This document shows positions 4,411-38,195 of a stretch of 64,000 nt of DNA, one piece after another. Within the stretch, counting starts at the first letter, position 1. Every line of letters starts with the position of its first letter. The position numbers were made by a program, and so were the translations under genes. Under the pieces are notes generated by a model, which searched no databases, was not told the DNA's origin, and worked only from the letters and a program-made list of their open reading frames with translations. The stretch is from contig JAHJKL010000070.1 of assembly GCA_018822365.1 (NCBI GenBank), positions 1,941 to 65,940 of the forward strand. Reading direction: 5' to 3'. This DNA comes from Candidatus Margulisiibacteriota bacterium. Its GTDB lineage: Bacteria > Margulisbacteria > WOR-1 > O2-12-FULL-45-9 > XYB2-FULL-48-7.

Positions 4411-7400
4411 ATGAACAAGCCCAAATACTCGATCTCCAAACAGAATGAATTTGTGATCGGGAACTACAATCAGGCCCCGACTTTTTCCAGTTTTTTTCCC
4501 GGAATAGCGGGTATTTTTGGCTGTCCAATGTGGGTTTTTTACGCCAATCGGGGGCAGTGTATCGCCTCTGCCGGCGTCCAGGACAAGAACGGGGCGATCA
4601 TTGAGTTCCACGCCGCTAACAAAGCCTACCGAAATGCCCATCTGCAGGGGTTCAGGACTTTCCTGAAGGTCGACGGCCAATTCTACGAACCATTTGCCGA
4701 AACCTCCCCCTGCCAGAACGAGCTCCGGATCAATCCTTACGATATCAAGCTTATCGAAGAAAACCCCGATCTTAAGATCAGGGTCGAAGTTCATTTTTTC
4801 AATATTCCCGATGAGCATTTCCCGGCCCTGGCCCGGACGGTCAAGATCGTTAATCTGGGTAAAAAAGCCCGCCAGGTAGAAGTTGTCGACGGCCTGCCGA
4901 TCATCATCCCCTTTGGCTTTGAAGATTTCCTCCTCAAGAAAATGAGCCAAACGATCGAGGCCTGGTGCATTGTTGAAAATCTTGATCAGGGGGTCCCCTT
5001 CTACAAGCTAAAGGTCCTGCCGGCCGACAACGCCGAAACCAAACTGCTTAAAAAAGGGAACTTCTACCTCCCTTTCTGCCAGGATGGCCAGCCGGTCGCG
5101 ACCATCGTCGACCCAACGGTCGTCTTTGGCGAAAACAGCAGCCTGGAGAGGCCGGACAATTTTTTGGGTAAAAGTTTTAAAGTACCCGGAAAGCAAATGA
5201 CCGATGGATTTACTCCGGCCGCCTTTGCCCACAAGAAATTCACCCTGACCGGTGATTTTGAGCTCTCCTCGATCATTGGCCAGATCGACAGCCTCGACCT
5301 GCTAAATAACGACAAACCCCGACTGATGAGCCGAAGCTACCTGGAGGCAAAAGCTGCCGCCAACCAGAACCTGATCAATGGGATCGGCGATTCAATGGAC
5401 ATCCGGAGCGCCAGCCGGAGCTTTGATCTTTATTCCCGCTACACCTTTCTGGACAACGTCATGCGGGGAGGGCTCCCGCTCATGATCGGCGGCAAACCGA
5501 TCTATCTCTACTATCGCAAGCATGGCGACATGGAACGCGATTACAACGACTTCAAACTTATGCCAACCTATTTTTCCCAGGGGAACGGCAACTACCGCGA
5601 CATTAATCAAAATCGGAGGAACGACCTGTTTTTTAACCCGGAGATCAAAGAGAGCAACATTGTCCGCTTCTTTAACCTGATCCAGCTTGACGGCTTCAAC
5701 CCGCTGGTCGTGCTGGGGAGCAAATATTTCATCGAGTCGTACCACACCGCGGAAACGCTGGCCAAGAAACACCTGCGGGAACCGGAAAAGCAGGCGATCG
5801 AAAAGATCGCCCGGCCGTTCATTCTGGGCGAGCTGCTCAAAGAATTTGAGCTCGAAGGGGTCCAATACCAGACCACACGCGAGGCCTTTGCCTCCGACCT
5901 GCTGCAGAGCAGCGAGGTCGAGGAAGGGGCGGTCCATGGCGAAGGGTTCTGGATCGACCATCCCTTTTACAACACCGATTTACTGGAAAGTTTTGAGGCG
6001 GTCTATCCCGACCGGATCACCGACGTTCTCTTTAACCAAAAAAACCTGACCTTTTTCGACAATGATCATGTCGTCGTCCCGCGCCAGGAAAAATACAAGC
6101 TCTGTGACGGCAAGGTCCGCCAGTATGAAAGCGTAAAACTTGATCCCGAAAAAGCGGCCCTGATCAACCACCGGGCTGTCAACAAAAACGCCGTCCGGGT
6201 CGACCACGGCAAAGGGAAGATCTACCATACCACCCTGGCGGCCAAGCTCCTCTGCCTGATCGCCAATAAAGCGGCCACCTTTGATGCCGCCGGGATCGGC
6301 CTGGAGATGGAGGCCGACAAGCCCGACTGGTATGATGCTCTTAACGGACTGCCGGGGCTTTTAGGCTCCTCCTTGTCCGAAACCCTGGAGCTAAAAAGAG
6401 TAGCCGCCTACCTGCTCTTGCGCCTGGAAAACGGGAAGGAGCTCGTCTTGCCGGCCGAAGTCAAAGAATTTATCGACCACCTGCTCCCCATCCTGGCCGA
6501 AACAGACAGCCACAAATATTGGGAGACAACCTACCAGCTGAAAGAAAAGTACCGCCAGAAAATCAAACTTGGGATCGCTGGGAGCGAAAGCGCCATTGGA
6601 CCACAGGAAACGGAGCGGCTGCTCGGGCTGGTTATTGCCCGCTGCGACCAGGCAGTGGAAAAGGTCTTGTCCAAATACGGCAATTACTACACCTATTTCG
6701 TCAACGAGGTCAGCTCGTACGAAGAGCTAGGCCAGGAGATCAGGGTCAAAGGGTTTTGCCAGAGCCCCCTGCCTCTCTTCCTGGAGGGGTTTGTCCACGC
6801 GCTCAAGGTCGAACGGGACGCGAGCATTTACCAGCGGGTCAAAGAGAGCCCGCTCTTTGACAAAAAACTGAAGATGTACAAGGTCAATGCCCCGCTGACC
6901 GAAATGCCGGTCGAGATCGGCCGGACCCGGATCTTTGCCCCAGGCTGGCTGGAGAACGAATCGGTCTTTGTTCACATGGAATACAAATATTTGTTGGAAT
7001 TATTAAAGGCCGGATTATACAAGGAGTTCTTTACCGACTTCAAAAACGTGCTGGTCCCTTTTATGGACCCCAGGGTTTACAAGCGGAGCATCCTGGAGAA
7101 TTCTTCGTTCATCGTCAGCTCCGCCCACCCCAACGCCAAAAATCACGGACGGGGTTTCATTGCCCGGCTCTCGGGCGGGGCAGCCGAATTCATCGACATG
7201 TGGCTGACCATGACTACCGGGAAAAGGCTCTTCTTCCTCGATCAGACGGGAAAGCTCTGTTTCCAGCTCAAGCCGGTCCTCCCCGCCTGGCTTTTTAAAC
7301 AGGGGGAATTAAGCTTCAGGCTTTTTGGCAAGATCGAGGTCGTTTACCTCAACTCCAAAAGAAAAGATTCCTTTGACAAGCTCCCTCTCTCCTATAAATT

Positions 7401-7509
7401 ATTTTTTGACGACAAAGAAATCGAGATCGCCCACCCCATTATCCAAGAACCTTACGCGTCAATGATCAGGGAGCGGAAGGTCAAAAAGATCGTGGCGCGC
7501 CTCTCTTAG
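4411..7509 (+). CDS. Large (1032 aa) GH94-clan-like glycoside phosphorylase (candidate GH149/GH161-type)
   Basis: The motifs 'NGNYRDINQNRRND' and 'DKPDWYDALNG' parallel the GH94 'GFRDSNQDTLG' and 'ADWNDCLNLDQG' catalytic-region motifs found in the neighbouring GH94 gene. It is co-oriented with the GH42 and GH94 genes. Confidence 0.5.
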   Translation: MNKPKYSISKQNEFVIGNYNQAPTFSSFFPGIAGIFGCPMWVFYANRGQCIASAGVQDKNGAIIEFHAANKAYRNAHLQGFRTFLKVDGQFYEPFAETSPCQNELRINPYDIKLIEENPDLKIRVEVHFFNIPDEHFPALARTVKIVNLGKKARQVEVVDGLPIIIPFGFEDFLLKKMSQTIEAWCIVENLDQGVPFYKLKVLPADNAETKLLKKGNFYLPFCQDGQPVATIVDPTVVFGENSSLERPDNFLGKSFKVPGKQMTDGFTPAAFAHKKFTLTGDFELSSIIGQIDSLDLLNNDKPRLMSRSYLEAKAAANQNLINGIGDSMDIRSASRSFDLYSRYTFLDNVMRGGLPLMIGGKPIYLYYRKHGDMERDYNDFKLMPTYFSQGNGNYRDINQNRRNDLFFNPEIKESNIVRFFNLIQLDGFNPLVVLGSKYFIESYHTAETLAKKHLREPEKQAIEKIARPFILGELLKEFELEGVQYQTTREAFASDLLQSSEVEEGAVHGEGFWIDHPFYNTDLLESFEAVYPDRITDVLFNQKNLTFFDNDHVVVPRQEKYKLCDGKVRQYESVKLDPEKAALINHRAVNKNAVRVDHGKGKIYHTTLAAKLLCLIANKAATFDAAGIGLEMEADKPDWYDALNGLPGLLGSSLSETLELKRVAAYLLLRLENGKELVLPAEVKEFIDHLLPILAETDSHKYWETTYQLKEKYRQKIKLGIAGSESAIGPQETERLLGLVIARCDQAVEKVLSKYGNYYTYFVNEVSSYEELGQEIRVKGFCQSPLPLFLEGFVHALKVERDASIYQRVKESPLFDKKLKMYKVNAPLTEMPVEIGRTRIFAPGWLENESVFVHMEYKYLLELLKAGLYKEFFTDFKNVLVPFMDPRVYKRSILENSSFIVSSAHPNAKNHGRGFIARLSGGAAEFIDMWLTMTTGKRLFFLDQTGKLCFQLKPVLPAWLFKQGELSFRLFGKIEVVYLNSKRKDSFDKLPLSYKLFFDDKEIEIAHPIIQEPYASMIRERKVKKIVARLS

Positions 7510-7530
7510 TTTTGCTACAATGTGTGAACT

Positions 7531-9300
7531 ATGTACCCTTTTGGCGTAACTTTTTACCCCGACCAGTGGCCGCTCGGCACCTGGGAGGAGACCTTTAAAA
7601 AGATCAAAGAGAGCGGTTTAAATACTATTCGTTTTGGTGAGATGGCCTGGGACTGGGTCGAGCCGGAACCGGGGAAGTACCGCTTCTACGACCTTGACCG
7701 GGCGCTCGACCTTTGCGAAAAGATCGGCCTGCAAGTTCTGCTGGGCCTCCCTACCTCCCAGGTCCCAAGCTGGTTTTATCGAAAATACCCGAACAGCCGG
7801 CCGGTCGCCCAGGACGGGACCCTCTATCCGGAATACGGTCCCCGACCCAATATCTGCAAAGACAATCCCCATTACCGGATGCACGCCGAAAAACTGGTCC
7901 GAACTATGGTCAAGCGCTACAGCAAGCATCTGGCGGTCGCTATGTGGCAGGTCGACAACGAACCGGTCTATCCACCCCTTGACCACACCACCTCCAACGA
8001 CTTTTGCCACTGCGAACATTCCCGCCAGGCCTTTATTAAATGGGCCAGGGAAAAATACGGAACGATCAAAAAACTGAACGATGCCTGGGGGACCAGGTTC
8101 TGGACGACTACCTTCTTCTCTTTTAACGATATCCTGACCCCCAAAGCGGGGATCTGGGAAGCGGTTTCTCCGCATATTTTCCTCGACTGGTTCCGTTTCA
8201 AGACCGACAGCTTGAGCCAGTGGATCAACCACCTGGCCGACGTTGTCCGGGAATACGATAAATTCCACAAGGTTGGGACCAACGGCTTTGTCGGGATCTG
8301 CACCCGGGTTCCCGACCACAGCAAAATGGTCGGCAACCTCGACTGGTACGGGCTCGACATTTACCCCAAAGGGGGACGGATGGACCCGCAGGGGCTCGCC
8401 TTCCACTATGACCTGTGGCGGAGTTTTGTGAGGGGGACCAAAGCAGAATTCCACATCACCGAACTCCAGGGGGGACAGAATGTCCGCTGGGGCGCCCCGG
8501 AATATGTCGAGGGGCCGGAGATCCGCGGCTGGACGACCGCCGCGCTCGAGCATGGAGCCGAAGCGATCCTCTACCACGCCTGGCGGCCGCCGCTGTTTGG
8601 CGCCGAGACCGGCGGGTTTGGCATTTGCAATGTTGACGGATCATCCAGCAAGCGGCTGGAAGTAATCAAGAAGCTTGCCGGAGACATTCGCTCCGGCAAA
8701 CTTAAAAAAGCCAATTGCAAAGCTAAGCTCGCGATCGCTTATTTGCGAAGCAGTGAGATCCAGTCGTATCAGGAGCAAGGCCCGCCGCGCGGCATTGCCG
8801 GACAATGGGAAGCGGTCAGGGGCGATATCGGGATAATGTATTCGATCCTGTCGCTGGGAGGAGCTTATTCGGTCCTTTTCCAAAAAAGCGAACCGGCCGA
8901 TTTTATTTTTGAGCGCGAACTTGATAGCGGCGACCTTCCTTATAAAGTTATTTTAATGCCAAACCCCTACCTGCTTTCTCAAAAGCAATACGATAATCTG
9001 AAAAAATGGATCAGCGCCGGCGGCAAGCTGATCACCGAAGCCCGCTTTGGCCTGAAAAATGAAATGGGGCATCTGCTTGAACACCCCTTTCTGGAAGACC
9101 TGATCGGTGAAAAGTACGAATTCACCGCCCCCACTCCAACCGGCTTTATTGACGGACTGCAAGGTCGCCCGCGCAAAGAACAAGTTTTCACCAAGAAGAT
9201 CGGCAAGGGAAAAGCGGTTTACGCCAACTTCAGTCTCTTTTTGCAGATCAAGAACGGCAATAAAAAGTTGGCCAACCTGGTCAACAAAGAGCTGGCCTAA
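7531..9300 (+). CDS. GH42-family beta-galactosidase-like glycoside hydrolase (short, 589 aa)
   Basis: The N-terminus 'FGVTFYPDQWPLGTWEETFKKIKESGLNTIRFGEMAWDWVEPEPGKYRF' matches the GH42 TIM-barrel start. An 'VDNEPVY' acid/base-type motif and 'HITELQGG' are present. Confidence 0.7.
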   Translation: MYPFGVTFYPDQWPLGTWEETFKKIKESGLNTIRFGEMAWDWVEPEPGKYRFYDLDRALDLCEKIGLQVLLGLPTSQVPSWFYRKYPNSRPVAQDGTLYPEYGPRPNICKDNPHYRMHAEKLVRTMVKRYSKHLAVAMWQVDNEPVYPPLDHTTSNDFCHCEHSRQAFIKWAREKYGTIKKLNDAWGTRFWTTTFFSFNDILTPKAGIWEAVSPHIFLDWFRFKTDSLSQWINHLADVVREYDKFHKVGTNGFVGICTRVPDHSKMVGNLDWYGLDIYPKGGRMDPQGLAFHYDLWRSFVRGTKAEFHITELQGGQNVRWGAPEYVEGPEIRGWTTAALEHGAEAILYHAWRPPLFGAETGGFGICNVDGSSSKRLEVIKKLAGDIRSGKLKKANCKAKLAIAYLRSSEIQSYQEQGPPRGIAGQWEAVRGDIGIMYSILSLGGAYSVLFQKSEPADFIFERELDSGDLPYKVILMPNPYLLSQKQYDNLKKWISAGGKLITEARFGLKNEMGHLLEHPFLEDLIGEKYEFTAPTPTGFIDGLQGRPRKEQVFTKKIGKGKAVYANFSLFLQIKNGNKKLANLVNKELA

Positions 9301-9380
9301 ATTTTTTTCCTCTTTTCTCCTCGCTAGTTTTATGCTAAAATAACTGATAATCCCCACAAATAGTAGAAAGGAAAAGCATC

Positions 9381-11723
9381 ATGTCTAAGTACGGTCATTT
9401 CGACAAAAAGAATAAAGAGTTTGTGATCACCCGCCCCGACACCCCGCTCCCCTGGATCAATTATTTAGGAGCCGACGAATATTGCGCCCTGATGTCAAAC
9501 ACTGCGGGAGGCTACAGTTTTCATAAAGACCCGAAAGAGCGGCGGCTGACCCGCTACCGCTACAATAACGTCCCAATGGACCGCGGTGGTCGTTATATTT
9601 ACATTCGCGACAACAAAACCGAAAAGTTTTTCTCCCCCTCCTGGCAGCCGACCATGAAACTCGACAAATACGAATGCCGCCACGGGATCGGCTACACTGT
9701 CATTAACTCTGAGTACGCCGGGGTCAAGACCAAGACAACCTATTTTGTCCCGCTTGGTGAAAACCTGGAGATCTGGATGCTCGAGATCAGCTCCAATAAA
9801 GATCGCGATCTCTCGGTCTTCCCGTTTGTTGAGTTCTGTCTCTGGGATGCCTTAAACGACATGACCGACTATCAATACAACCTGAATATCGGCCAGACCG
9901 AATACAAAGACGGGATCATCTATCACCTCTCCCGCCACCGGGTCAATCCTGATCTCGTCGGTTTCCTCGCCTGCGCCAACGCTCTGCCAAAAGGTTTTGA
10001 CACCCAGCGCCGCGACTTTATGGGAACTTACGGCGATTTCTCCGCCCCGCGCGGGGTCGTCGAGGGAAAGATGAAAAACTCGATCGCCTGCGGCTGGTCG
10101 CCGGTCGGCGCGCTTAAGATCCCGGTCAAGCTGAAAAAAGGGGAAACAAAAACCCTGATCTTTGTCCTCGGCTTTGAAGACAATCTCGAAGGTCCGGCAA
10201 AGAAAGTGAAACAGTTCAGCAAGAAAGAAGTCATTGAAAAAGAGCTCAAGAAGCTGGCCGAATACTGGGAAGGGAACCTCAATAAGTTTGCCGTCGAAAC
10301 CCCTGATGAAGAACTGAACCTGATGGCCAACGTCTGGAACCAGTACCAGTGCCGGACCACCTTTAATTGGTCCCGCTCCGCTTCTTATTATGAATCAGGG
10401 ATCGGCCGCGGCATGGGGTTCCGCGACTCCAACCAGGACACCCTCGGTTTCGTTCACATGATCCCGGGTAAAGTTAAAGAACGGATCAAAGACCTGGCCG
10501 CCACCCAGCTAAAAGATGGGAGCGCCTACCACCAATATTCACCGCTCTACAAGAAGGCCAATCCTTCCGACCACAAATACGGCGACGACCACCTCTGGCT
10601 GATCTTTTCAACCGCCGGTTATGTTAAAGAGAGCGGCGATCTTAACTTCCTCAAAGAAGAAGTGACCTTCGCGGGCGAAGATTCCGGGACAATGTACGAA
10701 CATCTCGCCCGGGCGATAGGCTTCTCGACCTCCAACATCGGCGAGCACGGGATACCGCGGATCCTTTTTGCCGACTGGAACGACTGCCTCAACCTGGACC
10801 AGGGAAAAGGAAAAGCGGAATCGGTCATGGTGGCACAGATGCTGGTTGGGGCCGCGTATGAAATGGCCAAGCTAGCCGAACTCCTCGGTAAAAAAGAAGA
10901 CGTCAAAAAATACACGACTATTGCCGATGAGATGAAAGCGGTGATCAACGAAAGGTGCTGGGATGGCCAATGGTACACCCGCGCTTATACCGATGAGCTG
11001 GAACCTGTTGGCTCCAAGAGCTGCAAGGAAGGGAAGATCTATCTGGAAAGCCAGGCCTGGGCGGTCCTCTCGGGCACTGCCGATGAAGAACGGGCCAAGC
11101 AGTGCATGGATTCAGTAAAGAAAAACCTCTCGACCGAACACGGGATCATGGTCATGACCCCGCCTTACTCCAAGTTTTACTGGCAGCTTGGTTCGATCGG
11201 CGTTTATCCGCCGGGACTCAAGGAGAACGGCGCGATCTTCTGCCACCCTAACCCGTGGGCAATGATCGCCGAGTGCCTGATCGGCCGCGGCGACCAGGCT
11301 TACGCTTATTACCGGGCGATCCTCCCTTCGGCCCGCCTCAAGATCGCCGACCTGCACAAGACCGAACCGTACGTCTACTGCCAGATGATCGCCGGCCGCG
11401 ACCACAAGGATTTTGGCGAAGGGAAAAACTCCTGGCTGACCGGCTCCGCCTGCTGGAACTTTGTCGCCATGTCGCAATATATCATCGGGGTCCGCGCTGA
11501 CTATAAAGGGTTGATGATCGACCCGTGCATTCCCAAGGCTTGGAAAAGCTTTACCGCCCACCGGGAATTCCGCGGAGCGATTTACAATATCTCAGTTAAA
11601 AATCCTAACGGGGTCAGCAAAGGGATCAAACAAATCTCGATAGACGGCAAAGAATTAAAATCCAATGTTTTGCCGGTCGGCAAAGCGGGACAAGAATATA
11701 ACATTGAAGTTGTAATGGGGTAG
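9381..11723 (+). CDS. GH94 disaccharide phosphorylase (cellobiose/laminaribiose phosphorylase family)
   Basis: The N-terminus 'FDKKNKEFVITRPDTPLPWINYLG...NTAGGYSF' is a classic GH94 start. The motifs 'GFRDSNQDTLG' and 'ADWNDCLN' are present, and there is an RBS AGGAA upstream. Confidence 0.8.
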   Translation: MSKYGHFDKKNKEFVITRPDTPLPWINYLGADEYCALMSNTAGGYSFHKDPKERRLTRYRYNNVPMDRGGRYIYIRDNKTEKFFSPSWQPTMKLDKYECRHGIGYTVINSEYAGVKTKTTYFVPLGENLEIWMLEISSNKDRDLSVFPFVEFCLWDALNDMTDYQYNLNIGQTEYKDGIIYHLSRHRVNPDLVGFLACANALPKGFDTQRRDFMGTYGDFSAPRGVVEGKMKNSIACGWSPVGALKIPVKLKKGETKTLIFVLGFEDNLEGPAKKVKQFSKKEVIEKELKKLAEYWEGNLNKFAVETPDEELNLMANVWNQYQCRTTFNWSRSASYYESGIGRGMGFRDSNQDTLGFVHMIPGKVKERIKDLAATQLKDGSAYHQYSPLYKKANPSDHKYGDDHLWLIFSTAGYVKESGDLNFLKEEVTFAGEDSGTMYEHLARAIGFSTSNIGEHGIPRILFADWNDCLNLDQGKGKAESVMVAQMLVGAAYEMAKLAELLGKKEDVKKYTTIADEMKAVINERCWDGQWYTRAYTDELEPVGSKSCKEGKIYLESQAWAVLSGTADEERAKQCMDSVKKNLSTEHGIMVMTPPYSKFYWQLGSIGVYPPGLKENGAIFCHPNPWAMIAECLIGRGDQAYAYYRAILPSARLKIADLHKTEPYVYCQMIAGRDHKDFGEGKNSWLTGSACWNFVAMSQYIIGVRADYKGLMIDPCIPKAWKSFTAHREFRGAIYNISVKNPNGVSKGIKQISIDGKELKSNVLPVGKAGQEYNIEVVMG

Positions 11724-11744: not shown

Positions 11745-11766
11745 AGGAAATCGATTTCCTATTTTA
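11745..11766. terminator. Bidirectional hairpin terminator between convergent genes
   Basis: A perfect 16-bp palindrome AGGAAATCGATTTCCT is followed by ATTTTAT, lying between the GH94 stop (11723) and the stop of the minus-strand gene (11759). Confidence 0.4.
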
Positions 11767-12310
11767 TGGCAACTACCTTCGTCTTGGCGATCGTTCGACC
11801 GTCAACCACGACCCTGACAAAGTAGACCCCGTTGTCTACGGCTTCGCCAAAGACAGATCTGCCGTCCCAGACGACCCGGCTATAGCCGTCACTGCCGCGA
11901 TTGGCGCTGGTATCCGAGATCAGCCTGATCAAACTCCCCGACAGATCAAAAATATAGGCTTTTACCGGGGCATCGGTCGCATATTTATAGGCAATGGTCA
12001 CCGGCTGGCTTTCCGGAATAAATGGGTTGGGGTAAACCAGGGTCTCTCCTTCGCCGCTCGGGATTATCGCGACTGCTCCTCCCGCTTGGGGAAAAAGCGG
12101 CGTATAGACCATTGACGCCAATCCGACGCTTCCTCCGTAGCTGCCGCTGCAGATCAATCCGGCGATGCTTTCCCCCGCTACTCCATAATTAATAAAATTT
12201 GTTCCGGTAGAAGTGGCCGGACCCATGGTTAACGCCTCCGGGCTGGTGCTATAAGCAAACCCGGGGGATAAAAACAAAACCAGGCACACAATGACCAGGA
12301 GTAATCTCAT
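11759..12310 (-). CDS. Secreted protein with FlgD-Ig-like / T9SS-type C-terminal sorting domain
   Basis: There is an N-terminal signal peptide (MRLLLVIVCLVLFLSPGFA). The C-terminal 'YPNPF...YIFDLSG...WDG...NGVYFVRV...K' pattern matches Por_Secre_tail / FlgD Ig-like domains. Confidence 0.55.
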   Translation of the reverse strand: MRLLLVIVCLVLFLSPGFAYSTSPEALTMGPATSTGTNFINYGVAGESIAGLICSGSYGGSVGLASMVYTPLFPQAGGAVAIIPSGEGETLVYPNPFIPESQPVTIAYKYATDAPVKAYIFDLSGSLIRLISDTSANRGSDGYSRVVWDGRSVFGEAVDNGVYFVRVVVDGRTIAKTKVVAIK

Positions 12311-12379
12311 ATTTAAATCCTATAGTTTTTCACCCGGGGTGTCAAGAAATGCTATAATTACCAAGCAAGAGGTGGTTTT
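12311..12379. promoter_or_regulatory. Divergent promoter region
   Basis: Plus strand: extended -10 TGcTATAAT at 12350-12358, then RBS AGAGGTGG before the ATG at 12380. Minus strand: -35 TTGACA (plus 12340-12345) with a weak -10. Confidence 0.35.
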
Positions 12380-13273
12380 ATGAAAACGATTAATTGCGCG
12401 GTTACGTTGCTATTGTTTTTTTGCTTGGCCGTTCCCGCGCTGGCCGTGCCGCAATATTTAAATTATCAGGGGGTCTTGCGTGACGACCAGGGACGCCTGG
12501 TTGCCGGGACCAAGTCGCTGACCTTTAAGCTCTATGATGTTTCAACATCCGGGACCTCTCTCTGGGAAATGACCTCCCCCGAAGTCGCGGTCAATAACGG
12601 CCTCTATAATGTTCAGCTTGGCCCACTTGGTTACGCCGAGCTTGCCTCCGGCCGCCGCTGGCTCGAAATTGCCATTGGGACAGAAACTCTTTCTCCCCGG
12701 CTCGAGATCCTCTCCGTCGCCTACGCGGTAACGGCGGGCCAGGCCGAATCGGCGACCACTCTTGGGGGATACTCTCCAGCCATAACCGGGAGCGGGAGCT
12801 TTATTCCGGTCACAACTAGCGGAAAACTTGATGCGTCAGTCATTCCAACTTCCAGCGGCGGAAATGCCGATACGGTCGACAGCTTTCACGCCAACTCAAC
12901 CGCTACCGCCGGGCAGATCTTGCCCCTTGACAGCAATAAACAGCTCAAAGGGATGTCGGTTTCAGCGGAGGCTAGCGGGAACAATTACGCTTTGTTTGTT
13001 AATGGAGGGAAATTTGGGGTTAAAACCGGATCGAACATGAGCGTGGGGACCGGAACGATTACAACAGCTAGCGGGGTCTCCTTTGTCGATGTTACCAACA
13101 CAAGTATTACACCAAATAGTTTAGTGTTTCTAACAGTTGGATCTGCTGGCGCAAACAGTCATGGGGGAATAAAAGTTACAACCATTACTAATGGAGTAAA
13201 GTTTAGAGTTGCTACAATGGACAGTAGCCCTGCAACCGTTGATATCCCTTTTAATTATCTAGTTATTAATTAA
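12380..13273 (+). CDS. Secreted beta-rich protein with N-terminal 'INYQG' motif (tail-fibre-like module)
   Basis: There is a signal peptide. The stretch 'VPQYLNYQGVLRDDQGRLVAGTKSLTFKLYDVSTSGTSLWEMTSPEVAVNNGLYNVQLG' is a motif recurrent in large secreted proteins of uncultivated bacteria. The rest is Ser/Thr/Gly-rich. Confidence 0.5.
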   Translation: MKTINCAVTLLLFFCLAVPALAVPQYLNYQGVLRDDQGRLVAGTKSLTFKLYDVSTSGTSLWEMTSPEVAVNNGLYNVQLGPLGYAELASGRRWLEIAIGTETLSPRLEILSVAYAVTAGQAESATTLGGYSPAITGSGSFIPVTTSGKLDASVIPTSSGGNADTVDSFHANSTATAGQILPLDSNKQLKGMSVSAEASGNNYALFVNGGKFGVKTGSNMSVGTGTITTASGVSFVDVTNTSITPNSLVFLTVGSAGANSHGGIKVTTITNGVKFRVATMDSSPATVDIPFNYLVIN

Positions 13274-14241
13274 TAGGAACAAGTATTAATCGAGAAGTCT
13301 AGCAATTGAGGTGTGTCAACTACATTTGGCGATGTAAAAACAAATCTAACGTTTGCACATTGTTTATCAAATCCGTTATCAGTTTGAATTAAATCTCCAT
13401 TTAATGGCAACCAGGCGGACCAATTTGATCCGCAGTCTCCATTTTGAGTTTCAACATAAATATTTGTCCCATTTTGGCTCAAAATATTCATAACAACATT
13501 GGCTCCGTTTCCAAGATTATTTGGCAATGGAACGTTAATTGCTACTAGATATGAACCATATGTCTGCCCATTTAATATTAATGCGCCAGCAACTGAAAAA
13601 GGGTCTAAACTCCCAGATGGATCAACAGTCCCTATGATCCAGTTGTCTGTCTCAGAATAATTCTGTGGCGCGCAAACCGGCCCATCGGCTACGTCCGCTT
13701 CTGCCTCAACAACATCCTGAATCACATCTTCGGTAATGTCCGGAATTATATCCTGCGCGATATCCTCAATAACATCGGGGATAATATCCGGTTTAATATC
13801 TTCCGCAACATCCTGGACCACATCTTCGGTAATGTCCGGGATAACATCAAGTAACGTGTCCAGAGGGGAATCTTGTTCCACGTCAGGTAATACATCCGGC
13901 AAGACATCAGGGGTGTCGTTGTCCACATCAATAATAGTATCCAGCGCGACATCGGCTAAAGCGTCGGCCTCTTTCCCCCCGTCTAAGACATCTTCAACCG
14001 TATCGGTTAAAACATCTTTACCGTCAACGTCGGTCAATGAGGCATCGGTTAATGTTTGCTCTTTTCCCGGCGCGAGCATCTCCGCGGCAAAAGAACAACC
14101 GATTGCCAGATGAGCGGCGGTTGCCATCGCCGCTAAGCCTGACAATTGGCCAAGCTTGGCGGCCCGTATATTTGGGGTTGCTTTTGGCATCGATGTTTGT
14201 GGACGAATCCTGGAAACCATTACCGACAATCTACTGATCAT
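13270..14241 (-). CDS. Secreted (lipo)protein with acidic 8-aa tandem repeats and a Cys-containing C-terminal domain
   Basis: The ATG at 14241 is preceded by a GGAGGG RBS, and the signal peptide ends in a lipobox-like AIGC. About 15 repeats of the type 'PDI(T/I)EDV(V/I)Q' occupy residues ~60-190. The ORF-track TTG at 14253 is less likely to be the start. Confidence 0.55.
   Translation of the reverse strand: MISRLSVMVSRIRPQTSMPKATPNIRAAKLGQLSGLAAMATAAHLAIGCSFAAEMLAPGKEQTLTDASLTDVDGKDVLTDTVEDVLDGGKEADALADVALDTIIDVDNDTPDVLPDVLPDVEQDSPLDTLLDVIPDITEDVVQDVAEDIKPDIIPDVIEDIAQDIIPDITEDVIQDVVEAEADVADGPVCAPQNYSETDNWIIGTVDPSGSLDPFSVAGALILNGQTYGSYLVAINVPLPNNLGNGANVVMNILSQNGTNIYVETQNGDCGSNWSAWLPLNGDLIQTDNGFDKQCANVRFVFTSPNVVDTPQLLDFSINTCSY
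13690..13900 (-). repeat. In-frame 24-nt tandem repeat array (encodes the D/I/V-rich octapeptide repeats)
   Basis: A visible 24-nt periodicity (e.g. ggtaatgtccgggataacatc / ggtaatgtccggaattatatc variants) encodes 'DITEDVVQ/DVAEDIKP/DIIPDVIE...'. Confidence 0.6.
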
Positions 14242-15547
14242 TTTTCCCTCCAATATTCACCATTGACAGCGAAAAGTTGGTCTGGCCAAATTGCAATAAG
14301 TGGTTCCGCCTGATCTGCCTTAGCTCGTCAACAAAGACCCGGGCCGAAGGATGGCGGTTCTCAGCTTTTTTTTGAAATGCCTTGGTAAAAAAATCCGACA
14401 GCGGTTCGCCCAGAAAGGCAAAATCAGGAAGCGGGATGTTCTCGTCCATTACCCGCCGGCCGTAGGCCGAGGCATCATCGGTCGGCTTGATCGGATAAGG
14501 GGCTCGTCCCGTGATCAGCTCAAAAACAATGACCGCCAGGGCGTAATAATCGGCCCGCCAATCTGCCTCTTCCCCCCGCCAGACTTCCGGCGACATATAA
14601 AGAGGGGTACCAAATACTCCTTGTTTATAAGCTTGAGTAAGCTTGAGCGATTTTTTCCCCAGATCACGCCTAACATATTTGGCCAAACCCCAGTCACCGA
14701 TCTTGAAGCGATCGCGATCTTCCCCTTCGGTCCGGTAGACAAAAATGTTGTCAGGTTTAAGGTCGCGGTGGACTATCCCCTCCCTATGGACCGACAGCAA
14801 AGTCTCGCCGATCGAGATCGCCAGGTCCAGAACATAATCAACCGGGAAATGGTTGACCCCTTCCTGCTGTTGTTTTTTTTCAACAATGTTTTCCAACGTT
14901 CCTGAAGGCATAAATTCCATGGTAATGTATGGGATCGAACCATTAAAACTATGCAGTGGCCTGCCAGTGAGGGCGGTAAAGGTCTTCGGGCTAAGCCGAC
15001 CCAGGTCATAAAGATGGACCACCCCTTCGATCACCAGTCTCGCCTGGTTTCTCGCTTCCGCGCTTTCAAACCGGGCGATCGTCGCCGGGTCATTGAGCGA
15101 CCCTTCAAGCGGTATTTTTAACACGACATCCAGGTCAAGGCGCCGGTCATAGGCTAATATTGTTGACGCCATCCCTCCCTGGCCTAACGGTCTTTTGACC
15201 TCATAACGCTCCATAAATGACTGGTGAAGGTGGTCTTCTTTCATCGCCTGGAGAGCTGTCATTTCACCTTTTTGCAATTCCAGCTCTGCCGCATTGCCGG
15301 CTAACGTCAGTCGATCAGAAACCAAGACCTTATGCGCGCCATAACCCAACACCGCGCTCGCCAATGCCGCGACCAGGTGCGACCACGGCTTATAGAGCGG
15401 GTCGTTAAAAGAAGCTCTGACGCTCCCGTAGGCCCCGCCAACCGCACAAGCCGCGATCAATGCCCCCCTGGCTACATTGGAAGCAACTCGATGCCGGTTG
15501 GCCAACCCATCAACTCGAGCCAGCTGTTTAGTGATCGAACTGACCAT
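14231..15547 (-). CDS. Hanks-type Ser/Thr protein kinase, N-terminally membrane-anchored
   Basis: Kinase motifs are GQGGMASTI (Gly-rich loop), VVLKIP, HRDLKPDNIF, IGDWGLA and GTPLYMSPE. Two hydrophobic segments lie at the N-terminus. The start ATG overlaps the upstream stop (TAATG). Confidence 0.8.
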   Translation of the reverse strand: MVSSITKQLARVDGLANRHRVASNVARGALIAACAVGGAYGSVRASFNDPLYKPWSHLVAALASAVLGYGAHKVLVSDRLTLAGNAAELELQKGEMTALQAMKEDHLHQSFMERYEVKRPLGQGGMASTILAYDRRLDLDVVLKIPLEGSLNDPATIARFESAEARNQARLVIEGVVHLYDLGRLSPKTFTALTGRPLHSFNGSIPYITMEFMPSGTLENIVEKKQQQEGVNHFPVDYVLDLAISIGETLLSVHREGIVHRDLKPDNIFVYRTEGEDRDRFKIGDWGLAKYVRRDLGKKSLKLTQAYKQGVFGTPLYMSPEVWRGEEADWRADYYALAVIVFELITGRAPYPIKPTDDASAYGRRVMDENIPLPDFAFLGEPLSDFFTKAFQKKAENRHPSARVFVDELRQIRRNHLLQFGQTNFSLSMVNIGGKNDQ

Positions 15548-17079
15548 TAAAAAGCCCCCCGATATGTATCAATAGAAGACGCATTAATAGGAAGAAGTAT
15601 TGGCTGGAGGCTTCCATAGCCAAACATAACTAACGCAGAAATTGGGGTAATTGAACCGGCTTCATCCTTGATTCGAGACCCGCCAATTTCTGATTGGAGG
15701 TAGATCTGCCCAAATTTTATCCGACCTTGCAGGCCGGCATTGATCTGCTGATGGTTCTCCCTGCTAATTAGCCTGAAACTTGGCCCTGCCGCCAAATCGC
15801 CGCCAACAAAGGCAGCAGCCCGTGCCTGGCTTCCTCTTTGACTGTCATAATCAAAGCGGGCCGCGGCGTCAAGTTGTTCGCTAAGCCAGGCCAGTCCGGC
15901 ATAACCTCCCGCCCCAAATCCGCCAAGCTGACGGTCGCTTCCGGCTAATCCCCCGGCAAAGATATTGATCTGCTCACTAAGATGAAGCGAAAGTCCTGCA
16001 TCCCCAAATACCACTGTTTGCGGCTCTCCCCCGCTTTGCCCGATAAAAAACGAGTCGCCAAAATTAAGAGCGACCGTTTTTAAGAGCGGCAGGGTTGCCC
16101 GTCCATTTTGTCCAAAGCCAACCATGCTGGGAAGGAGTCGTCTTGAATTTTCGTCAAGCGTGGTAGCGCGAAATCTCTCTCCGCTAACCTGCAAATGAGC
16201 GGTTAACCCGGCCGATCTTAATTGCGCGGTCCCGCGCAAAGAATCTTCACCCGACCGGGATTCAGTAAAGCCTGGAGCAAGGACCAGTCCGCCGCGATAA
16301 TCAAGTTGCGTTCGCCAGGCATCGCTTCGAATAAATTGCCAGGAACCTCCGCCTATAGCAGCCAGCCCGCCAGCCTCACTAGTTACGTATCCTCCGCCAA
16401 AAACTAAACGATAATTTGTTCCAACTGAACCAGGTTTTGGCAAAGGAGCGGATCTGGTTGGTGCGGGCCTTACCTCGCTCCTTGTTTCAGCGACCGAAAT
16501 TGCGCCGCAGATCGAGGTTATTTTTGAGTTTATCCCATCAATCGAGATCGTTTCCCGGTTCAATCTGTTGTTAACCGGTAAACGGCTATTAAGTTGCACC
16601 AATAGGTCGCGAAGTGATGGAAGATACGCCAACGCCAATCCTCTTAAGCGGGTATTATCCCGGGAAAGAGCAAATTCCAGGTTTTGGGTCGCTTGTGATA
16701 GCTGCCCGCGCAGCGCCTGGTATCTCTGTTTGGCTTCCTGGATCTTATTGATGGCTACGTTTAAATTGCTAACATCTTCTTTTAAAACGTCCATCTTGTT
16801 TCGCCTGGAAATTTCGGCGATCATGTCATTTAATACTTTAAGCCTCTTTTCAAATGGATCGGTTTCCGTTGTTGATCTGGCCAGATCAATAAATATCCGG
16901 CTGGTTTCGTCGGTAAATACCAGCCCGCCGATCCCGTTGTTCAACTCCCCAACCACCTGTGCCATTGATTGAACCGCTCTCATCTCAACCAACACATTTA
17001 GTGTATCGGTGTTTTCTTTCGCTTTGGCCGGATCGATCGCCCGTCCTCTTTCAACCGTACAAATCGCGTTTATATCCAT
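15547..17079 (-). CDS. Coiled-coil plus Gly-rich beta-domain protein (no signal peptide seen)
   Basis: The ATG at 17079 is preceded by RBS AGGAG. The ORF-track start at 17169 would overlap the upstream gene. The N-terminal ~230 aa are heptad-rich, the C-terminal half is Gly/Ala/Ser-rich beta-like, and the protein ends in ...YRGAF. Confidence 0.5.
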   Translation of the reverse strand: MDINAICTVERGRAIDPAKAKENTDTLNVLVEMRAVQSMAQVVGELNNGIGGLVFTDETSRIFIDLARSTTETDPFEKRLKVLNDMIAEISRRNKMDVLKEDVSNLNVAINKIQEAKQRYQALRGQLSQATQNLEFALSRDNTRLRGLALAYLPSLRDLLVQLNSRLPVNNRLNRETISIDGINSKITSICGAISVAETRSEVRPAPTRSAPLPKPGSVGTNYRLVFGGGYVTSEAGGLAAIGGGSWQFIRSDAWRTQLDYRGGLVLAPGFTESRSGEDSLRGTAQLRSAGLTAHLQVSGERFRATTLDENSRRLLPSMVGFGQNGRATLPLLKTVALNFGDSFFIGQSGGEPQTVVFGDAGLSLHLSEQINIFAGGLAGSDRQLGGFGAGGYAGLAWLSEQLDAAARFDYDSQRGSQARAAAFVGGDLAAGPSFRLISRENHQQINAGLQGRIKFGQIYLQSEIGGSRIKDEAGSITPISALVMFGYGSLQPILLPINASSIDTYRGAF

Positions 17080-17089
17080 CTTTTTCTCC

Positions 17090-17653
17090 TCAATTGTCCT
17101 GGCACTTGCCGCCAACCACGATCTGGCCCAATGGACACCTGATCTCCTTTGGCGGCGTCTTGCTTCCATTTGTTGAAGGTGTTGACTTGACCGGCGGTGG
17201 AATGATCGATGGCGGGGAACTGGCCAACGGGGGAATAAAGCTTGCTATAGCCGGGGGAACCAGGCTCGCGCTCGGCGGAGCAGTCACAGTCGGGACCACT
17301 GTTGGGTTAATTTCTACAGGCGGACACACGGGAAGGTTTGGGGCATCAACTACAATGATCCCGGTCATTTCCTGAATACCATTCGCCCAGGCTCCACCCA
17401 GCCTTGACTCATTCTTTTTCAGATCAAGGACGGTTTTTATCCCCACCGATTCCAGGGCGGTCTTCATCGCTGGGGCTTGATCATCGTTTGGATGTCCGCA
17501 GTAATTTCGGATCAAGTAGTAGCTAACATGATCAAGCGAAGAAGTTTGATCAAGCGGGATAGTCACCCTCTCTTTTTTTGGCGCACCGCAGGCAACCGCC
17601 GCAGTTAAAGCCAAGGCAGGCATAATATTTCGAAAAGTTCGTGTTATCCTCAT
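17090..17653 (-). CDS. Lipoprotein with Pro-rich linker
   Basis: The ATG at 17653 gives 'MRITRTFRNIMPALALTAAVACG', a signal peptide with a lipobox-like Cys. A central PPxIPP-rich linker and a C-terminal CPLGQIVVGGKC follow. The stop sits within the RBS of the next gene. Confidence 0.5.
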   Translation of the reverse strand: MRITRTFRNIMPALALTAAVACGAPKKERVTIPLDQTSSLDHVSYYLIRNYCGHPNDDQAPAMKTALESVGIKTVLDLKKNESRLGGAWANGIQEMTGIIVVDAPNLPVCPPVEINPTVVPTVTAPPSASLVPPAIASFIPPLASSPPSIIPPPVKSTPSTNGSKTPPKEIRCPLGQIVVGGKCQDN

Positions 17654-17696: not shown

Positions 17697-17728
17697 AAAA
17701 AAATAACCGCGGTGATGGCCGCGGTTAT
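17697..17728 (-). terminator. Rho-independent terminator
   Basis: On the minus strand, AACCGCGGccatcaCCGCGGTT forms an 8-bp perfect stem followed by ATTTTTTTT. It lies directly downstream of the gene at 17754-18593. Confidence 0.65.
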
Positions 17729-17753
17729 TAGTCAAGGTCAGCCTAATTAAAGC

Positions 17754-18593
17754 TTATTTCGTGCCGTATTTGGTTAGATAAACCGCTCCCAAGCCACATA
17801 GTGTGGCAAAGAATTTTACAAAAAACCCAACTATTGGGACCAGTCCGACCAGGAAAAGAATGGTGACCCCGGTCAGGGTTTCAACCATCATTGGTTTATT
17901 GTAGATTTTAAACGCGTTTAATGTTTTCTTCCCTAATAGATGGGCTATCCCAAAGTAACCAAAGAAAGCGGCCAAGCCGACCAGCAAGACCCAAAGAGGA
18001 ATGATCATGATCCCGATCAGACTTATCATTAATATAAATATAACCGGCAAAAAGAGAAGGAAAACAAGGGTCCCGATCAGGAAAGAGCGCAAAAGGTTGG
18101 TCTCGACCATGCCGGAAACCTTGCCAAGCGGTTCGATAAACAGAACAACCATGATCATTGCCAAGACAATAAAACCAATAAAGGTCAGCAGCTTAAAGAA
18201 GAACAGCCCCTTAGCCATCCCGCCGTTGGTAAAGAAGACCATCGCCTGACCAAGCCCCGGAGCGGCCACTTCAACCACGCTCCCTTTAACGACTGCCCCA
18301 GGCTCCTTGATCAGCATCCCACCAACAGCAACCGCGTCTCCCTCAACTTTGGCGCTTTCCTTTAATAAAACATTTCCTCCAACAGAGACGGCCGATCCGG
18401 TGACCTTGCCAAAAACGGTGACATTGCCGCCAATCGAAACCGCGTCCTGGACCTCTGCCCCGATCGGCACAACTACTCCATCGCCAACCTTAACCAAAGA
18501 TGAATCAGCGCTTACAAGTTCTTTAATAACAGCAAAAGCAGAAGTAGAAATTAGAATAACAACCAGCAGAGCCAAAATCCTCGTTTTCATCAA
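17754..18593 (-). CDS. Membrane protein with exported beta-helix repeat (bactofilin/DUF583-like 'GxVxVxG') domain
   Basis: A signal peptide is followed by repeats 'VSIGGNVTVFGKVTGSAVSVGGNVLLKESAKVEGDAVAVGG', then 4-5 hydrophobic TM segments. It is monocistronic and has its own terminator. Confidence 0.5.
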   Translation of the reverse strand: MMKTRILALLVVILISTSAFAVIKELVSADSSLVKVGDGVVVPIGAEVQDAVSIGGNVTVFGKVTGSAVSVGGNVLLKESAKVEGDAVAVGGMLIKEPGAVVKGSVVEVAAPGLGQAMVFFTNGGMAKGLFFFKLLTFIGFIVLAMIMVVLFIEPLGKVSGMVETNLLRSFLIGTLVFLLFLPVIFILMISLIGIMIIPLWVLLVGLAAFFGYFGIAHLLGKKTLNAFKIYNKPMMVETLTGVTILFLVGLVPIVGFFVKFFATLCGLGAVYLTKYGTK

Positions 18594-38111: not shown

Positions 38112-38120
38112 CGCCCTAAC

Positions 38121-38156
38121 GTCCTGGCCACCGATACCTGGGCAAGGACCGCCTAA
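38121..38156 (+). repeat. Degenerate duplicate of the dxr 3' end (12 codons plus stop)
   Basis: 'gtcctggccaccgatacctgggcaaggaccgcctaa' encodes VLATDTWARTA*, compared with the dxr terminus 'atcctggctgccgatacctgggccagatcaaattaa' (ILAADTWARSN*). The downstream 'cctgaaattcc' also echoes 'cctgaattttc' found after dxr. Confidence 0.55.
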
Positions 38157-38195
38157 CAACCTGAAATTCCCGCCGATAGTTGACGACGTTTTTTT

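What the first reader, a model, noticed from the sequence alone, without database searches (positions are those of the whole stretch)
13270..17653. Tightly coupled four-gene envelope operon centred on a membrane Ser/Thr kinase
- **Gene order (minus strand):** lipoprotein with a Pro-rich linker, then a coiled-coil plus Gly-rich beta-domain protein, then an N-terminally membrane-anchored Hanks kinase, then a secreted (lipo)protein made of acidic octapeptide repeats.
- **Junctions:** all four junctions indicate translational coupling:
  - The lipoprotein stop lies inside the next gene's AGGAG RBS.
  - The coiled-coil protein's stop and the kinase start overlap as TAATG.
  - A 7-nt gap separates the kinase from the acidic-repeat gene, which has a GGAGGG RBS.
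- **Upstream:** a strong terminator (17697-17728) insulates the operon.
- **Novelty:** I do not recognise this combination as a known system. Its composition suggests an envelope-associated signalling, assembly or secretion module.
Basis: partly seen in the sequence, partly recalled or inferred. Interest (0 to 1): 0.65.

Follow-up and report, generated by a model that had tools for sequence, protein, structure and literature searches.

The report
Margulisbacteria envelope kinase module, swappable tips
The four tightly packed genes are real and, with a fifth fibre gene on the other strand, form an undescribed cell-envelope gene set found only in Margulisbacteria: an outer-membrane-type barrel, a membrane-tethered protein kinase and two surface-type proteins whose tips are exchanged between near-identical strains.

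Summary
Four minus-strand genes (17653-13270) sit behind a strong terminator and are translationally coupled. One detail is wrong: kinase and g4 overlap by 11 nt; there is no 7-nt gap.

- **g1:** small novel-fold domain, Pro-rich spacer, Cys hairpin.
- **g3:** intact Hanks kinase behind a conserved hydrophobic hairpin.
- **g4:** Cys-anchored acidic-repeat stalk with interchangeable lectin-like heads.

The order g1-g2-g3(-g4) recurs in at least five lineages with different flanks. Every named member is Candidatus Margulisiibacteriota. The g2 family has only 8 clusters among 1.84 billion representatives.

A convergent MAT-like fibre gene (g5, 12380-13273) belongs too. A 0.40-GC cassette (13065-13762) carrying both the g4 and g5 tips is replaced between strains 99.9% identical on both sides.

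My best reading (about 0.4) is a trans-envelope surface-recognition and signalling apparatus. A surface-display or export role is the main rival.

One paradox remains: g2 never has a signal peptide, and g1 has one only in some lineages.

The parts
17702..17729 (-). Intrinsic-terminator-like hairpin (11-bp stem, 6 GC pairs, followed by TTTTTTTGTTT). It ends the upstream DUF8173 gene and insulates the operon.
   Evidence: sequence
17090..17653 (-). g1, 187 aa. It has a lipoprotein-type signal (res 1-22, Cys22), a confidently modelled beta-4alpha-beta N-domain (res 29-110, two invariant Cys), a Pro-rich spacer (res 111-170) and a C-terminal Cys-Cys beta-hairpin (CPxGQ...GxC).
15547..17079 (-). 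g2, 510 aa. It has no signal peptide and a conserved N-terminus, M..A/Q-I/V-C...IDPxK. A helical domain covers res 1-193 (window 16501-17079) and a disordered Pro linker covers res 198-217. A 16-strand antiparallel beta-barrel covers res 220-489 (window 15613-16422).
14231..15547 (-). g3, 438 aa, a Hanks-type Ser/Thr kinase. Two conserved moderately hydrophobic segments form a hairpin (res ~25-44 and 57-76; window 15320-15475) with a short conserved loop (ASF...P-E/W-S). A helical linker follows. The kinase domain covers res 115-399 (window 14351-15205) and retains the catalytic Lys144, Glu164, HRD, DWG and SPE.
13270..14241 (-). g4, 323 aa. It has a long n-region, a hydrophobic stretch and LAIG-C49 (G48 and C49 are invariant in the family). 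The acidic x-D-[IV]-x stalk covers res ~66-185 (window 13687-14046), with DNA tandem repeats at 13710-13848. The C-terminal Cys-containing head covers res ~186-323.
   Evidence: The head is replaced by a LamG-like domain in strain L002.
12380..13273 (+). g5, 297 aa, a convergent gene. It has a Sec signal peptide, a MAT-fibre-type N-terminal domain and a variable C-terminal knob (K1-lyase_C-like). Its stop codon overlaps the g4 stop (TTAATTAA).
   Evidence: It is conserved tail-to-tail with g4 in L002, L004, L013/L014 and L010/L015.
13065..13762 (.). Variable-tip cassette holding the 3' third of g4 and the last ~70 codons of g5. GC is 0.40 against a window average of 0.51. In an assembly that is 99.9% identical on both sides, it is replaced by an unrelated 991-bp segment.
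17754..18590 (-). DUF8173 gene (signal peptide, bactofilin-like repeat region, multi-TM C-terminus). It is a recurrent upstream neighbour and a possible but unproven associate.
   Evidence: It is 56% identical to the L018 copy, where g2 is only 25%.

Best explanation
This is a Margulisiibacteriota-specific, vertically inherited envelope apparatus for surface recognition coupled to phospho-signalling.

**Shown**
- Five genes (g1-g4 plus the convergent g5) form a conserved, translationally coupled unit.
- g2 has the fold and the lipid-facing surface of a 16-strand outer-membrane barrel, with a ~195-aa helical domain on its N-terminal side.
- g3 is a catalytically intact Hanks kinase whose only non-cytoplasmic feature is a conserved hydrophobic hairpin with a ~10-residue loop.
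- g4 is a Cys-anchored acidic stalk carrying interchangeable lectin-like heads.
- g5 is a short fibre with the N-terminal domain type of Bdellovibrio MAT fibres.
- The g4 head and the g5 knob are exchanged together as one low-GC cassette between otherwise identical strains.

**Inferred**
- g4 and g5 are displayed on the cell surface, held or passed through by the g2 barrel.
- Their polymorphic tips bind an external ligand, such as a glycan, a partner cell or a surface. They are under diversifying selection.
- Occupancy or load is relayed through the periplasmic helical domain of g2 and the Pro-rich, TonB-like spacer of g1 to the hairpin of g3.
- The cytoplasmic kinase domain of g3 then phosphorylates unknown targets.
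For: **Coupling and order.** Junction gaps or overlaps of -13 to +13 nt for g1/g2 and mostly a 1-nt overlap for g2/g3 recur in the window, L004, L006, L007, L008, L010, L011, L012, L013, L017 and L018.

**Different flanks.** The flanking genes are yifB/DUF8173 in the Saganbacteria-type loci, argCJB in L006, cbiM in L008 and L018, and M16 peptidases in L010/L015. Wherever a contig extends past g2, a hairpin-kinase gene follows.

**Barrel.** The outward-facing strand positions have mean hydropathy +1.27 against -0.90 for the inward ones in the window protein. In seven distant members the values are +1.12 against -0.88, with 6% against 21% charged residues.

**Kinase.** It is intact and is 86% identical to the L004 copy, while g1, g2 and g4 are 64-68% identical.

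**g4.** G-C is invariant and the heads are modular, being LamG-like and/or a beta-sandwich.

**g5.** All 5 of 5 members hit Bdello_MAT_N, with best E 4.6e-9. The MAT paper states that this N-domain 'would presumably tightly bind a surface element' that is still unidentified, and it discusses tip swapping (PMC10769870).

**Cassette.**

**Not mobile or viral.** There are no relatives in viral contigs and no PHROG hits except for the kinase domain, and the module sits in a core neighbourhood.
Against: - No member of the g2 family has a signal peptide.
- 13 of 15 g1 clusters lack a signal peptide.
- g4 of the L010 lineage lacks a hydrophobic h-region. Export of three of the five proteins is therefore unexplained.
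- The kinase hairpin is only moderately hydrophobic (KD19 1.2-1.8), and its loop is too short to be a sensor on its own.
- No physical contact between any two products has been shown.
- No phosphatase, FHA protein or obvious substrate is encoded in the unit.
- All synteny evidence comes from one phylum, so part of it could be inheritance by descent.
- The structural models rest on shallow alignments of 9 and 16 sequences.
Confidence: 0.4

Rival explanations
1. This is a surface-display or export machine rather than a sensor. The g2 barrel is a dedicated outer-membrane translocon or anchor, analogous to Slam/type XI secretion or to TPR-barrel exporters such as PelB, PgaA and BcsC. It would carry the g4 lipoprotein, and perhaps the g5 fibre, to the surface. 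g1 would be a periplasmic escort. The kinase would only regulate assembly from the cytoplasm.
Against: There are no DUF560, TPR or POTRA hits. There are 16 strands rather than the 14 of Slam. No polysaccharide synthase is conserved in the unit. The tight, conserved g2/g3 start-stop overlap and the strong conservation of the kinase argue that the kinase is a core subunit, not an accessory.
Confidence: 0.25
2. There is no single machine. g2 is a general porin or outer-membrane tether of the OmpM/DcaP type. The neighbouring genes are unrelated envelope and regulatory genes kept together only by descent within one phylum.
Against: The flanks are reshuffled four times while the block stays intact and the start-stop overlaps are preserved. 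There is no SLH domain. The family has only 8 clusters at 50% identity among 1.84 billion representatives, which is unlike a general porin.
Confidence: 0.12
3. g1 and g2 never leave the cytoplasm, because they have no signal peptides. They would form a complex with the kinase at the inner face of the membrane, and the 'barrel' prediction would be misleading or would represent a non-membrane assembly.
For: Signal peptides are absent in all g2 and most g1 sequences. The models come from shallow alignments.
Against: A hydrophobic outward face with 6-7% charged residues is conserved in distant members. All 50 listed structural neighbours are outer-membrane barrels. g1 carries a lipoprotein signal in two separate lineages. 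Conserved Cys pairs in g1 and g2 fit an oxidising compartment (inference).
Confidence: 0.1
4. This is a kinase-based anti-phage or decoy-receptor system. The variable g4 and g5 tips would be phage-receptor mimics or sensors, and the kinase would trigger a defence response.
For: The kinase domain hits PD-T4-6, MADS6 and PglW models. A hypervariable low-GC tip cassette is typical of phage-host arms races.
Against: Those hits cover only the generic kinase domain and fall far below the family cut-offs. The unit sits in a conserved housekeeping neighbourhood and is inherited vertically. There are no other defence-model hits and no viral relatives.
Confidence: 0.08

Closest known systems
DcaP (A. 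baumannii, PDB 6eus) and OmpM1 (Veillonella, PDB 8bym): 16-strand barrels with N-terminal helical periplasmic extensions
   Different: g2 has no signal peptide and no SLH domain. It has a ~195-aa multi-helix domain rather than a simple trimeric coiled coil. There is no sequence similarity. It is locked to a kinase gene.
Slam / type XI secretion with its surface lipoproteins (own knowledge)
   Same: An OM barrel with a helical periplasmic domain is encoded next to an antigenically variable lipoprotein.
   Different: There is no DUF560 or TPR hit. There are 16 strands, not 14. A kinase and a fibre gene are part of the unit.
TonB-dependent cell-surface signalling, FecA-FecR-FecI (own knowledge)
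   Same: The proposed logic is the same: an OM barrel relays an outside event to an inner-membrane transducer. g1 has a TonB-like Pro/Lys-rich spacer.
   Different: There is no plug, no TonB box and no anti-sigma/ECF pair. The transducer would be a Hanks kinase.
Bdellovibrio MAT (mosaic adhesive trimer) fibres (PMC10769870)
   Same: g5 shares the N-terminal domain type that follows the signal peptide (5/5 members). Its C-terminal tip is swapped between strains.
   Different: g5 is only ~300 aa. The score of 33.8 bits is below the 60-bit cut-off. There is no S74 domain. It is a single copy embedded in a kinase/barrel operon.
Myxococcus TraA/TraB kin-recognition pair (own knowledge)
   Same: A polymorphic surface receptor whose variable domain differs between close strains is encoded with an OM barrel partner.
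   Different: No homology was detected. TraAB has no kinase, and TraB has an OmpA domain.
PknB/Stk1-type bacterial Hanks kinases
   Same: The catalytic domain matches (NCBIfam 170 bits; Pfam 100.7 bits).
   Different: The topology is reversed, with an N-terminal hydrophobic hairpin and a C-terminal kinase. There is no PASTA or other extracellular sensor domain. The score is far below the equivalog cut-off of 450.

Membership tests
Hanks-type Ser/Thr protein kinase (Pfam PF00069) | Kinase domain scores above the Pfam gathering threshold | tested here: met
   100.7 bits against 31.7, res 115-399
Hanks-type Ser/Thr protein kinase (Pfam PF00069) | Catalytic residues are present: Gly-loop, VAIK Lys, alphaC Glu, HRD Asp, DFG Asp and APE | tested here: met
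   GQGGMAS, K144 (VLKI), E164, HRDLKPDN, DWG (Asp kept) and SPE are all present. K144, E164 and D285 are invariant in 7 family members.
PknB/Stk1 PASTA kinase (NCBIfam NF033483) | Score at equivalog level, with C-terminal TM and extracellular PASTA repeats | tested here: not met
   170 bits against a cut-off of 450. The match covers the kinase domain only. The hydrophobic segments are N-terminal.
Outer-membrane beta-barrel protein | Closed antiparallel barrel with an even strand number | tested here: met
Outer-membrane beta-barrel protein | Alternating lipid-facing hydrophobic and lumen-facing polar residues | tested here: met
   +1.27 against -0.90 in the window protein. +1.12 against -0.88 in seven distant members.
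Outer-membrane beta-barrel protein | N-terminal Sec signal peptide | tested here: not met
   All 8 full-length family N-termini are polar and conserved (M..QIC..IDPxK). No upstream in-frame extension is available.
Outer-membrane beta-barrel protein | C-terminal beta-signal ending in an aromatic residue | tested here: inconclusive
   The window clade ends ...RGAF, but other members end PLPEG[KRM]. The last strand carries a G-h-h-h-R-[FW] motif about 25 residues before the end.
OmpM-type OM tether | N-terminal SLH domain | tested here: not met
   No Pfam or NCBIfam hit on g2
Slam / type XI secretion | DUF560 14-strand barrel plus TPR domain | tested here: not met
   No hit. The model has 16 strands.
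Slam / type XI secretion | Adjacent surface-lipoprotein substrate gene | tested here: inconclusive
   g4, with its invariant G-C, lies two genes downstream in all lineages. Surface exposure was not tested.
Bacterial lipoprotein (g1) | Signal peptide with lipobox Cys, conserved in the family | tested here: inconclusive
   It is present in the window, L004 and L018 and absent in 13 of 15 family clusters. SignalP and LipoP were not available.
Bacterial lipoprotein (g4) | Signal peptide with lipobox Cys, conserved in the family | tested here: inconclusive
   G48-C49 are invariant and an h-region is present in 6 of 7 sequences. It is missing in the L010 lineage.
MAT fibre family (NCBIfam NF053851 Bdello_MAT_N) for g5 | N-terminal domain scores above the curated cut-off | tested here: inconclusive
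   33.8 bits against a cut-off of 60, but all 5 of 5 members match at E<=0.01, with best E 4.6e-9.
MAT fibre family (NCBIfam NF053851 Bdello_MAT_N) for g5 | Trimeric beta-prism shaft with a swappable C-terminal tip | tested here: inconclusive
   A tip swap between strains was observed. Trimer and shaft structure were not modelled.
SLATT 2-TM effector domain (kinase N-terminus) | Profile match shared by family members | tested here: not met
   14 bits against a cut-off of 41 in the window protein only. Only 1 of 7 members matches.
Kinase-based anti-phage systems (PD-T4-6, MADS, BREX PglW) | Family-level score and defence-island context | tested here: not met
   Hits cover only the kinase domain and are far below the cut-offs (92.9 against 460; 64.6 against 990). 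The partners have no PADLOC hits, and the context is housekeeping.

The most novel reading that the evidence does not exclude
The unit is a previously unknown kind of trans-envelope receptor. Polymorphic, cassette-swappable surface tips (g4 and g5) would be docked on a dedicated outer-membrane barrel that signals through a Pro-rich periplasmic connector to a hairpin-anchored Hanks kinase. The barrel (g2) and connector (g1) would reach the envelope by a route that does not use an N-terminal signal peptide. This would also identify a first candidate for the still-unknown cell-surface dock of MAT-type fibres.
Probability: 0.15. Interest if true: 0.85.

Novelty: new variant of a known kind. Interest (0 to 1): 0.6.

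Why it matters
- Bacterial Hanks kinases are almost always studied as single-pass receptors with their own extracellular domain. A kinase hard-wired to an outer-membrane barrel, a periplasm-spanning spacer and swappable surface tips would be a different way to carry outside information across a diderm envelope.
- The module gives a concrete, testable candidate for what anchors MAT-type fibres to a cell. That question is explicitly left open in PMC10769870.
- It offers a natural example of two convergent genes exchanging their receptor-binding ends as one cassette.
- An outer-membrane-type barrel family that never has a signal peptide, next to an orthologous family with patchy signal peptides, is a clean test case for how such proteins are targeted in Terrabacteria-side diderms. 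That gap is noted in PMC10629564.
- The practical value is limited because the organisms are uncultivated and the family is tiny.

Tried and rejected
- **SLATT domain in the kinase N-terminus.** The hit was weak (E 0.036) in the window protein only, in 1 of 7 members. Rejected.
- **C-terminal Phe of g2 as a classical beta-signal.** It is not conserved outside the window clade.
- **g1-g2 fusion by frameshift or read-through to lend g2 a signal peptide.** This is not tenable, because most g1 orthologues lack a signal peptide themselves.
- **Phage or mobile origin.** Two viral-contig scans and a PHROGs scan were negative.
- **Defence-system membership.** Only generic kinase-domain hits were found.
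- **Word-index homologue searches for g2.** They returned only 2 proteins even with a 9-sequence profile, so one search was wasted.
- **Genome-representative scan.** It found only the WOR-1 genome.
- **PDB sequence searches for g2, g4 and g5.** Nothing was found.
- **AFDB Foldseek library.** It was unavailable.
- **DUF8173 in the L010/L016 lineage.** The 326-aa neighbour there is unrelated.
- **Literature searches for the combination.** Nothing was found.

Full report
**Observation**

The minus strand between 17653 and 13270 carries four ORFs:
- g1: 17090-17653, 187 aa.
- g2: 15547-17079, 510 aa.
- g3: 14231-15547, 438 aa.
- g4: 13270-14241, 323 aa.

Gene callers used on three public assemblies of the same or related organisms chose the same boundaries.

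The g1 stop TGA overlaps a GAGGAG, and the g2 ATG lies 10 nt downstream. g2 and g3 overlap as TAATG. g4 starts at an ATG 4 nt after GGAGGG, and that ATG lies 11 nt inside the kinase gene (ATGATCAGTAG).

A hairpin with an 11-bp stem and a T-run at 17729-17702 follows the upstream gene. The window is from a Candidatus Margulisiibacteriota bacterium of the WOR-1/Saganbacteria type.

**The four products**

*g1.* It has a plausible lipoprotein signal (MRITRTFRNIMPALALTAAVA|C), a Pro-rich spacer and a C-terminal Cys-Cys hairpin.
- With a 16-sequence alignment, AlphaFold models the N-domain (res 29-110, beta-4alpha-beta) at pLDDT about 90.
- No profile library recognises it.

*g2.* It has no library hit and no relative by sequence in the PDB.
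- AlphaFold with 9 sequences gives mean pLDDT 80. The model has a seven-helix N-domain (1-193), a disordered Pro linker, and 16 long antiparallel strands (220-489).
- All 50 listed Foldseek hits are outer-membrane barrels, from 325 hits at E<=1e-3.
- Taking alternate residues of each strand, one face has mean hydropathy +1.27 (7 of 99 charged). The other has -0.90 (22 of 105 charged).
- Using the register from the window protein only, the same split holds in seven distant relatives. Values are +1.12 against -0.88, with 6% against 21% charged.

*g3.* It is a Hanks kinase (Pfam 100.7 bits) with all catalytic residues; DFG is DWG with the Asp kept.
- Ahead of the kinase lie two Ala/Gly-rich, moderately hydrophobic segments at conserved positions (KD19 1.2-1.8).
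- They are separated by a short conserved loop (A-S-F ... P-E/W-S) and followed by a helical linker.
- The N-terminus is basic, so both ends should be cytoplasmic (inference).

*g4.* It has a long n-region, a hydrophobic stretch and LAIG-C.
- The stalk is acidic (net charge -42), with a 4-residue x-D-[IV]-x period and 24/48-nt DNA repeats.
- A ~130-aa Cys-containing head follows.

**Rarity and conservation**

A full HMMER scan of 1.84 billion cluster representatives with a g2 profile found 8 proteins. One scan of 185,579 species genomes found only the WOR-1 genome. Every relative that carries a name is Candidatus Margulisiibacteriota.

Contexts were recovered for g2 or g1 relatives that are 21-33% identical in g2:

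| Locus | Upstream context | Genes recovered |
|---|---|---|
| L005, L013/L014 | Saganbacteria-type, same housekeeping flank | g1-g4 in L005 (contig ends within g4); g1-g5 in L013/L014 |
| L006 | argCJB | g1, g2 (contig ends) |
| L007 | not recovered | g2, then hairpin with a degenerate kinase |
| L008 | cbiM/nikR, DUF8173 further upstream | g1, g2, start of the hairpin gene |
| L018 | cbiM, DUF8173 | g1, g2 (contig ends) |
| L012 | not recovered | g1-g4 |
| L010/L011/L015/L016 | M16 peptidases | g1-g4, g5 and a FadL-like OMP (L010/L015/L016; L011 ends after g3); a 5,000-aa adhesin follows in L015/L016 |

Wherever the contig continues past g2, a hairpin-kinase gene follows. The g1/g2 junction is a 2-13-nt gap or a 4-nt overlap. 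The g2/g3 junction is usually a 1-nt overlap. Between the window and L004 the kinase is 86% identical, while g1, g2 and g4 are 64-68% identical.

**A fifth gene and a swappable cassette**

The convergent gene g5 (12380-13273, +) has a clear Sec signal and an N-terminal domain that matches the Bdellovibrio MAT-fibre N-domain model. All five orthologues match, with best E 4.6e-9, although the score is below the curated cut-off. Its C-terminal knob is K1-lyase_C-like. Its stop codon overlaps that of g4 (TTAATTAA). The same tail-to-tail arrangement occurs in L002, L004, L013/L014 and the distant L010/L015 lineage.

Comparing the window with assembly GCA_043812375.1 (L002) gives 99.9% DNA identity on both sides. 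Window 13065-13762, however, is replaced by an unrelated 991-bp segment.
- The replaced piece is exactly the head of g4 plus the last ~70 codons of g5. In L002 the 130-aa Cys head becomes a LamG-like domain.
- Both alleles have GC 0.40 against 0.51 for the genome.
- The same interval is the only part that fails to align with L004.
- The breakpoints lie in the acidic-repeat DNA of g4 and in the conserved GTGTIT end of the g5 shaft.
- Across the family, g4 heads are modular: LamG-like plus a beta-sandwich, LamG-like alone, or beta-sandwich alone.

**Interpretation**

Three things together make an envelope-spanning apparatus the best reading, at about 0.4:
- A barrel with an outer-membrane fold.
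- Two proteins with polymorphic tips that are exchanged together.
- An intact, strongly conserved kinase whose gene overlaps the barrel gene.

In this reading, g4 and g5 are displayed on or through g2. The g2 helical domain and the TonB-like Pro/Lys-rich spacer of g1 bridge the periplasm, and the g3 hairpin receives the signal. The MAT paper notes that the conserved fibre N-domain should bind an unidentified surface element and that tips are swapped (PMC10769870). Here a candidate dock is encoded next door.

None of the contacts, the localisation or the kinase's targets are shown. The main rival (0.25) is a display or export machine with the kinase as regulator. The remaining rivals are weaker, for the reasons given in their entries:
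- Mere synteny with a porin or tether.
- A cytoplasmic-face complex.
- A phage-defence role.

**The unresolved paradox**

- No g2 sequence has a signal peptide. All begin M-x(2-7)-[QA]-[IV]-C...IDPxK, with invariant Cys7 and Cys191.
- g1 has a lipoprotein signal in the window/L004 clade and, independently, in L018. Thirteen of 15 g1 clusters start directly at the folded domain.
- g4 of the L010 lineage lacks an h-region.
- Canonical secreted proteins in the same loci, namely g5 and the FadL-like OMP, do have signals.

Either these proteins use a route not recognisable from sequence, or the barrel is not where its fold suggests. A large survey of predicted transmembrane barrels noted lower signal-peptide detection in Terrabacteria-side phyla without resolving why (PMC10629564).

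**Novelty and score**

The parts are of known kinds: an OM barrel, a Hanks kinase, a lipoprotein-like stalk and a MAT-like fibre. The g1, g2 and g4 families, however, are unannotated. The combination matches no system in the libraries or papers I could search.

I rate it a new variant of a known kind, meaning an outer-membrane barrel linked to an inner-membrane transducer for surface sensing or display. A 0.15 chance remains that it is a new type of receptor with non-classical targeting. Interest is 0.6.

Noticed in passing
window 13065-13762 (and L002 4086-5076): A low-GC (0.40 against 0.51) cassette holds the 3' ends of two convergent genes, g4 and g5. It is replaced wholesale between assemblies that are 99.9% identical on both flanks.
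   Followed up: yes
window 13270-13273: g4 and g5 end in overlapping stop codons within the palindrome TTAATTAA, with no terminator between them. The tail-to-tail overlap (4-15 nt) recurs in L004, L010 and L013, which implies antisense transcript overlap.
   Followed up: partly
window 17754-18590: The DUF8173 protein has a signal peptide, bactofilin-like G-rich repeats and a multi-TM C-terminus. It is 56% identical to the copy in L018, where g2 is only 25% identical. It sits upstream of g1 in the Saganbacteria clade and L018, and 2.7 kb upstream in L008. It is absent near the unit in L010/L016.
   Followed up: partly
window 11759-12310 (-): A 183-aa secreted protein has a C-terminal FlgD-Ig / T9SS-type sorting-domain match (TIGR04183, 31.1 bits against a cut-off of 23). 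It is divergent from g5, with promoter-like sites in both directions at 12317-12358. It is conserved next to g5 in L002, L004 and L013/L014. In L015/L016 a 5,000-aa adhesin with the same domain lies nearby.
   Followed up: partly
window 37482-39080 (+): A second, short Hanks kinase (294 aa, Pkinase 84.8 bits) lies directly downstream of a 209-aa leucine-rich-repeat protein.
   Followed up: no
L007 1762-2649: The gene after g2 keeps the hydrophobic hairpin and the kinase N-lobe but lacks the HRD/DFG region. It is either a pseudokinase or an assembly artefact on a 2.7-kb contig.
   Followed up: no
window 4411-11723 (+): A 1032-aa protein without any Pfam hit is followed by GH42 and GH94 (cellobiose-phosphorylase-like) genes. 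This trio stays next to the unit in the Saganbacteria-type genomes (L003/L004, L013) but not in the other lineages.
   Followed up: no
g1 orthologues (P0010-P0024; L018 8302-8838): Within one orthologous family, a lipoprotein signal peptide is present in two separate lineages and absent in the rest. The C-terminal CPxGQ...C hairpin is also missing in the L008/L012 clade.
   Followed up: partly
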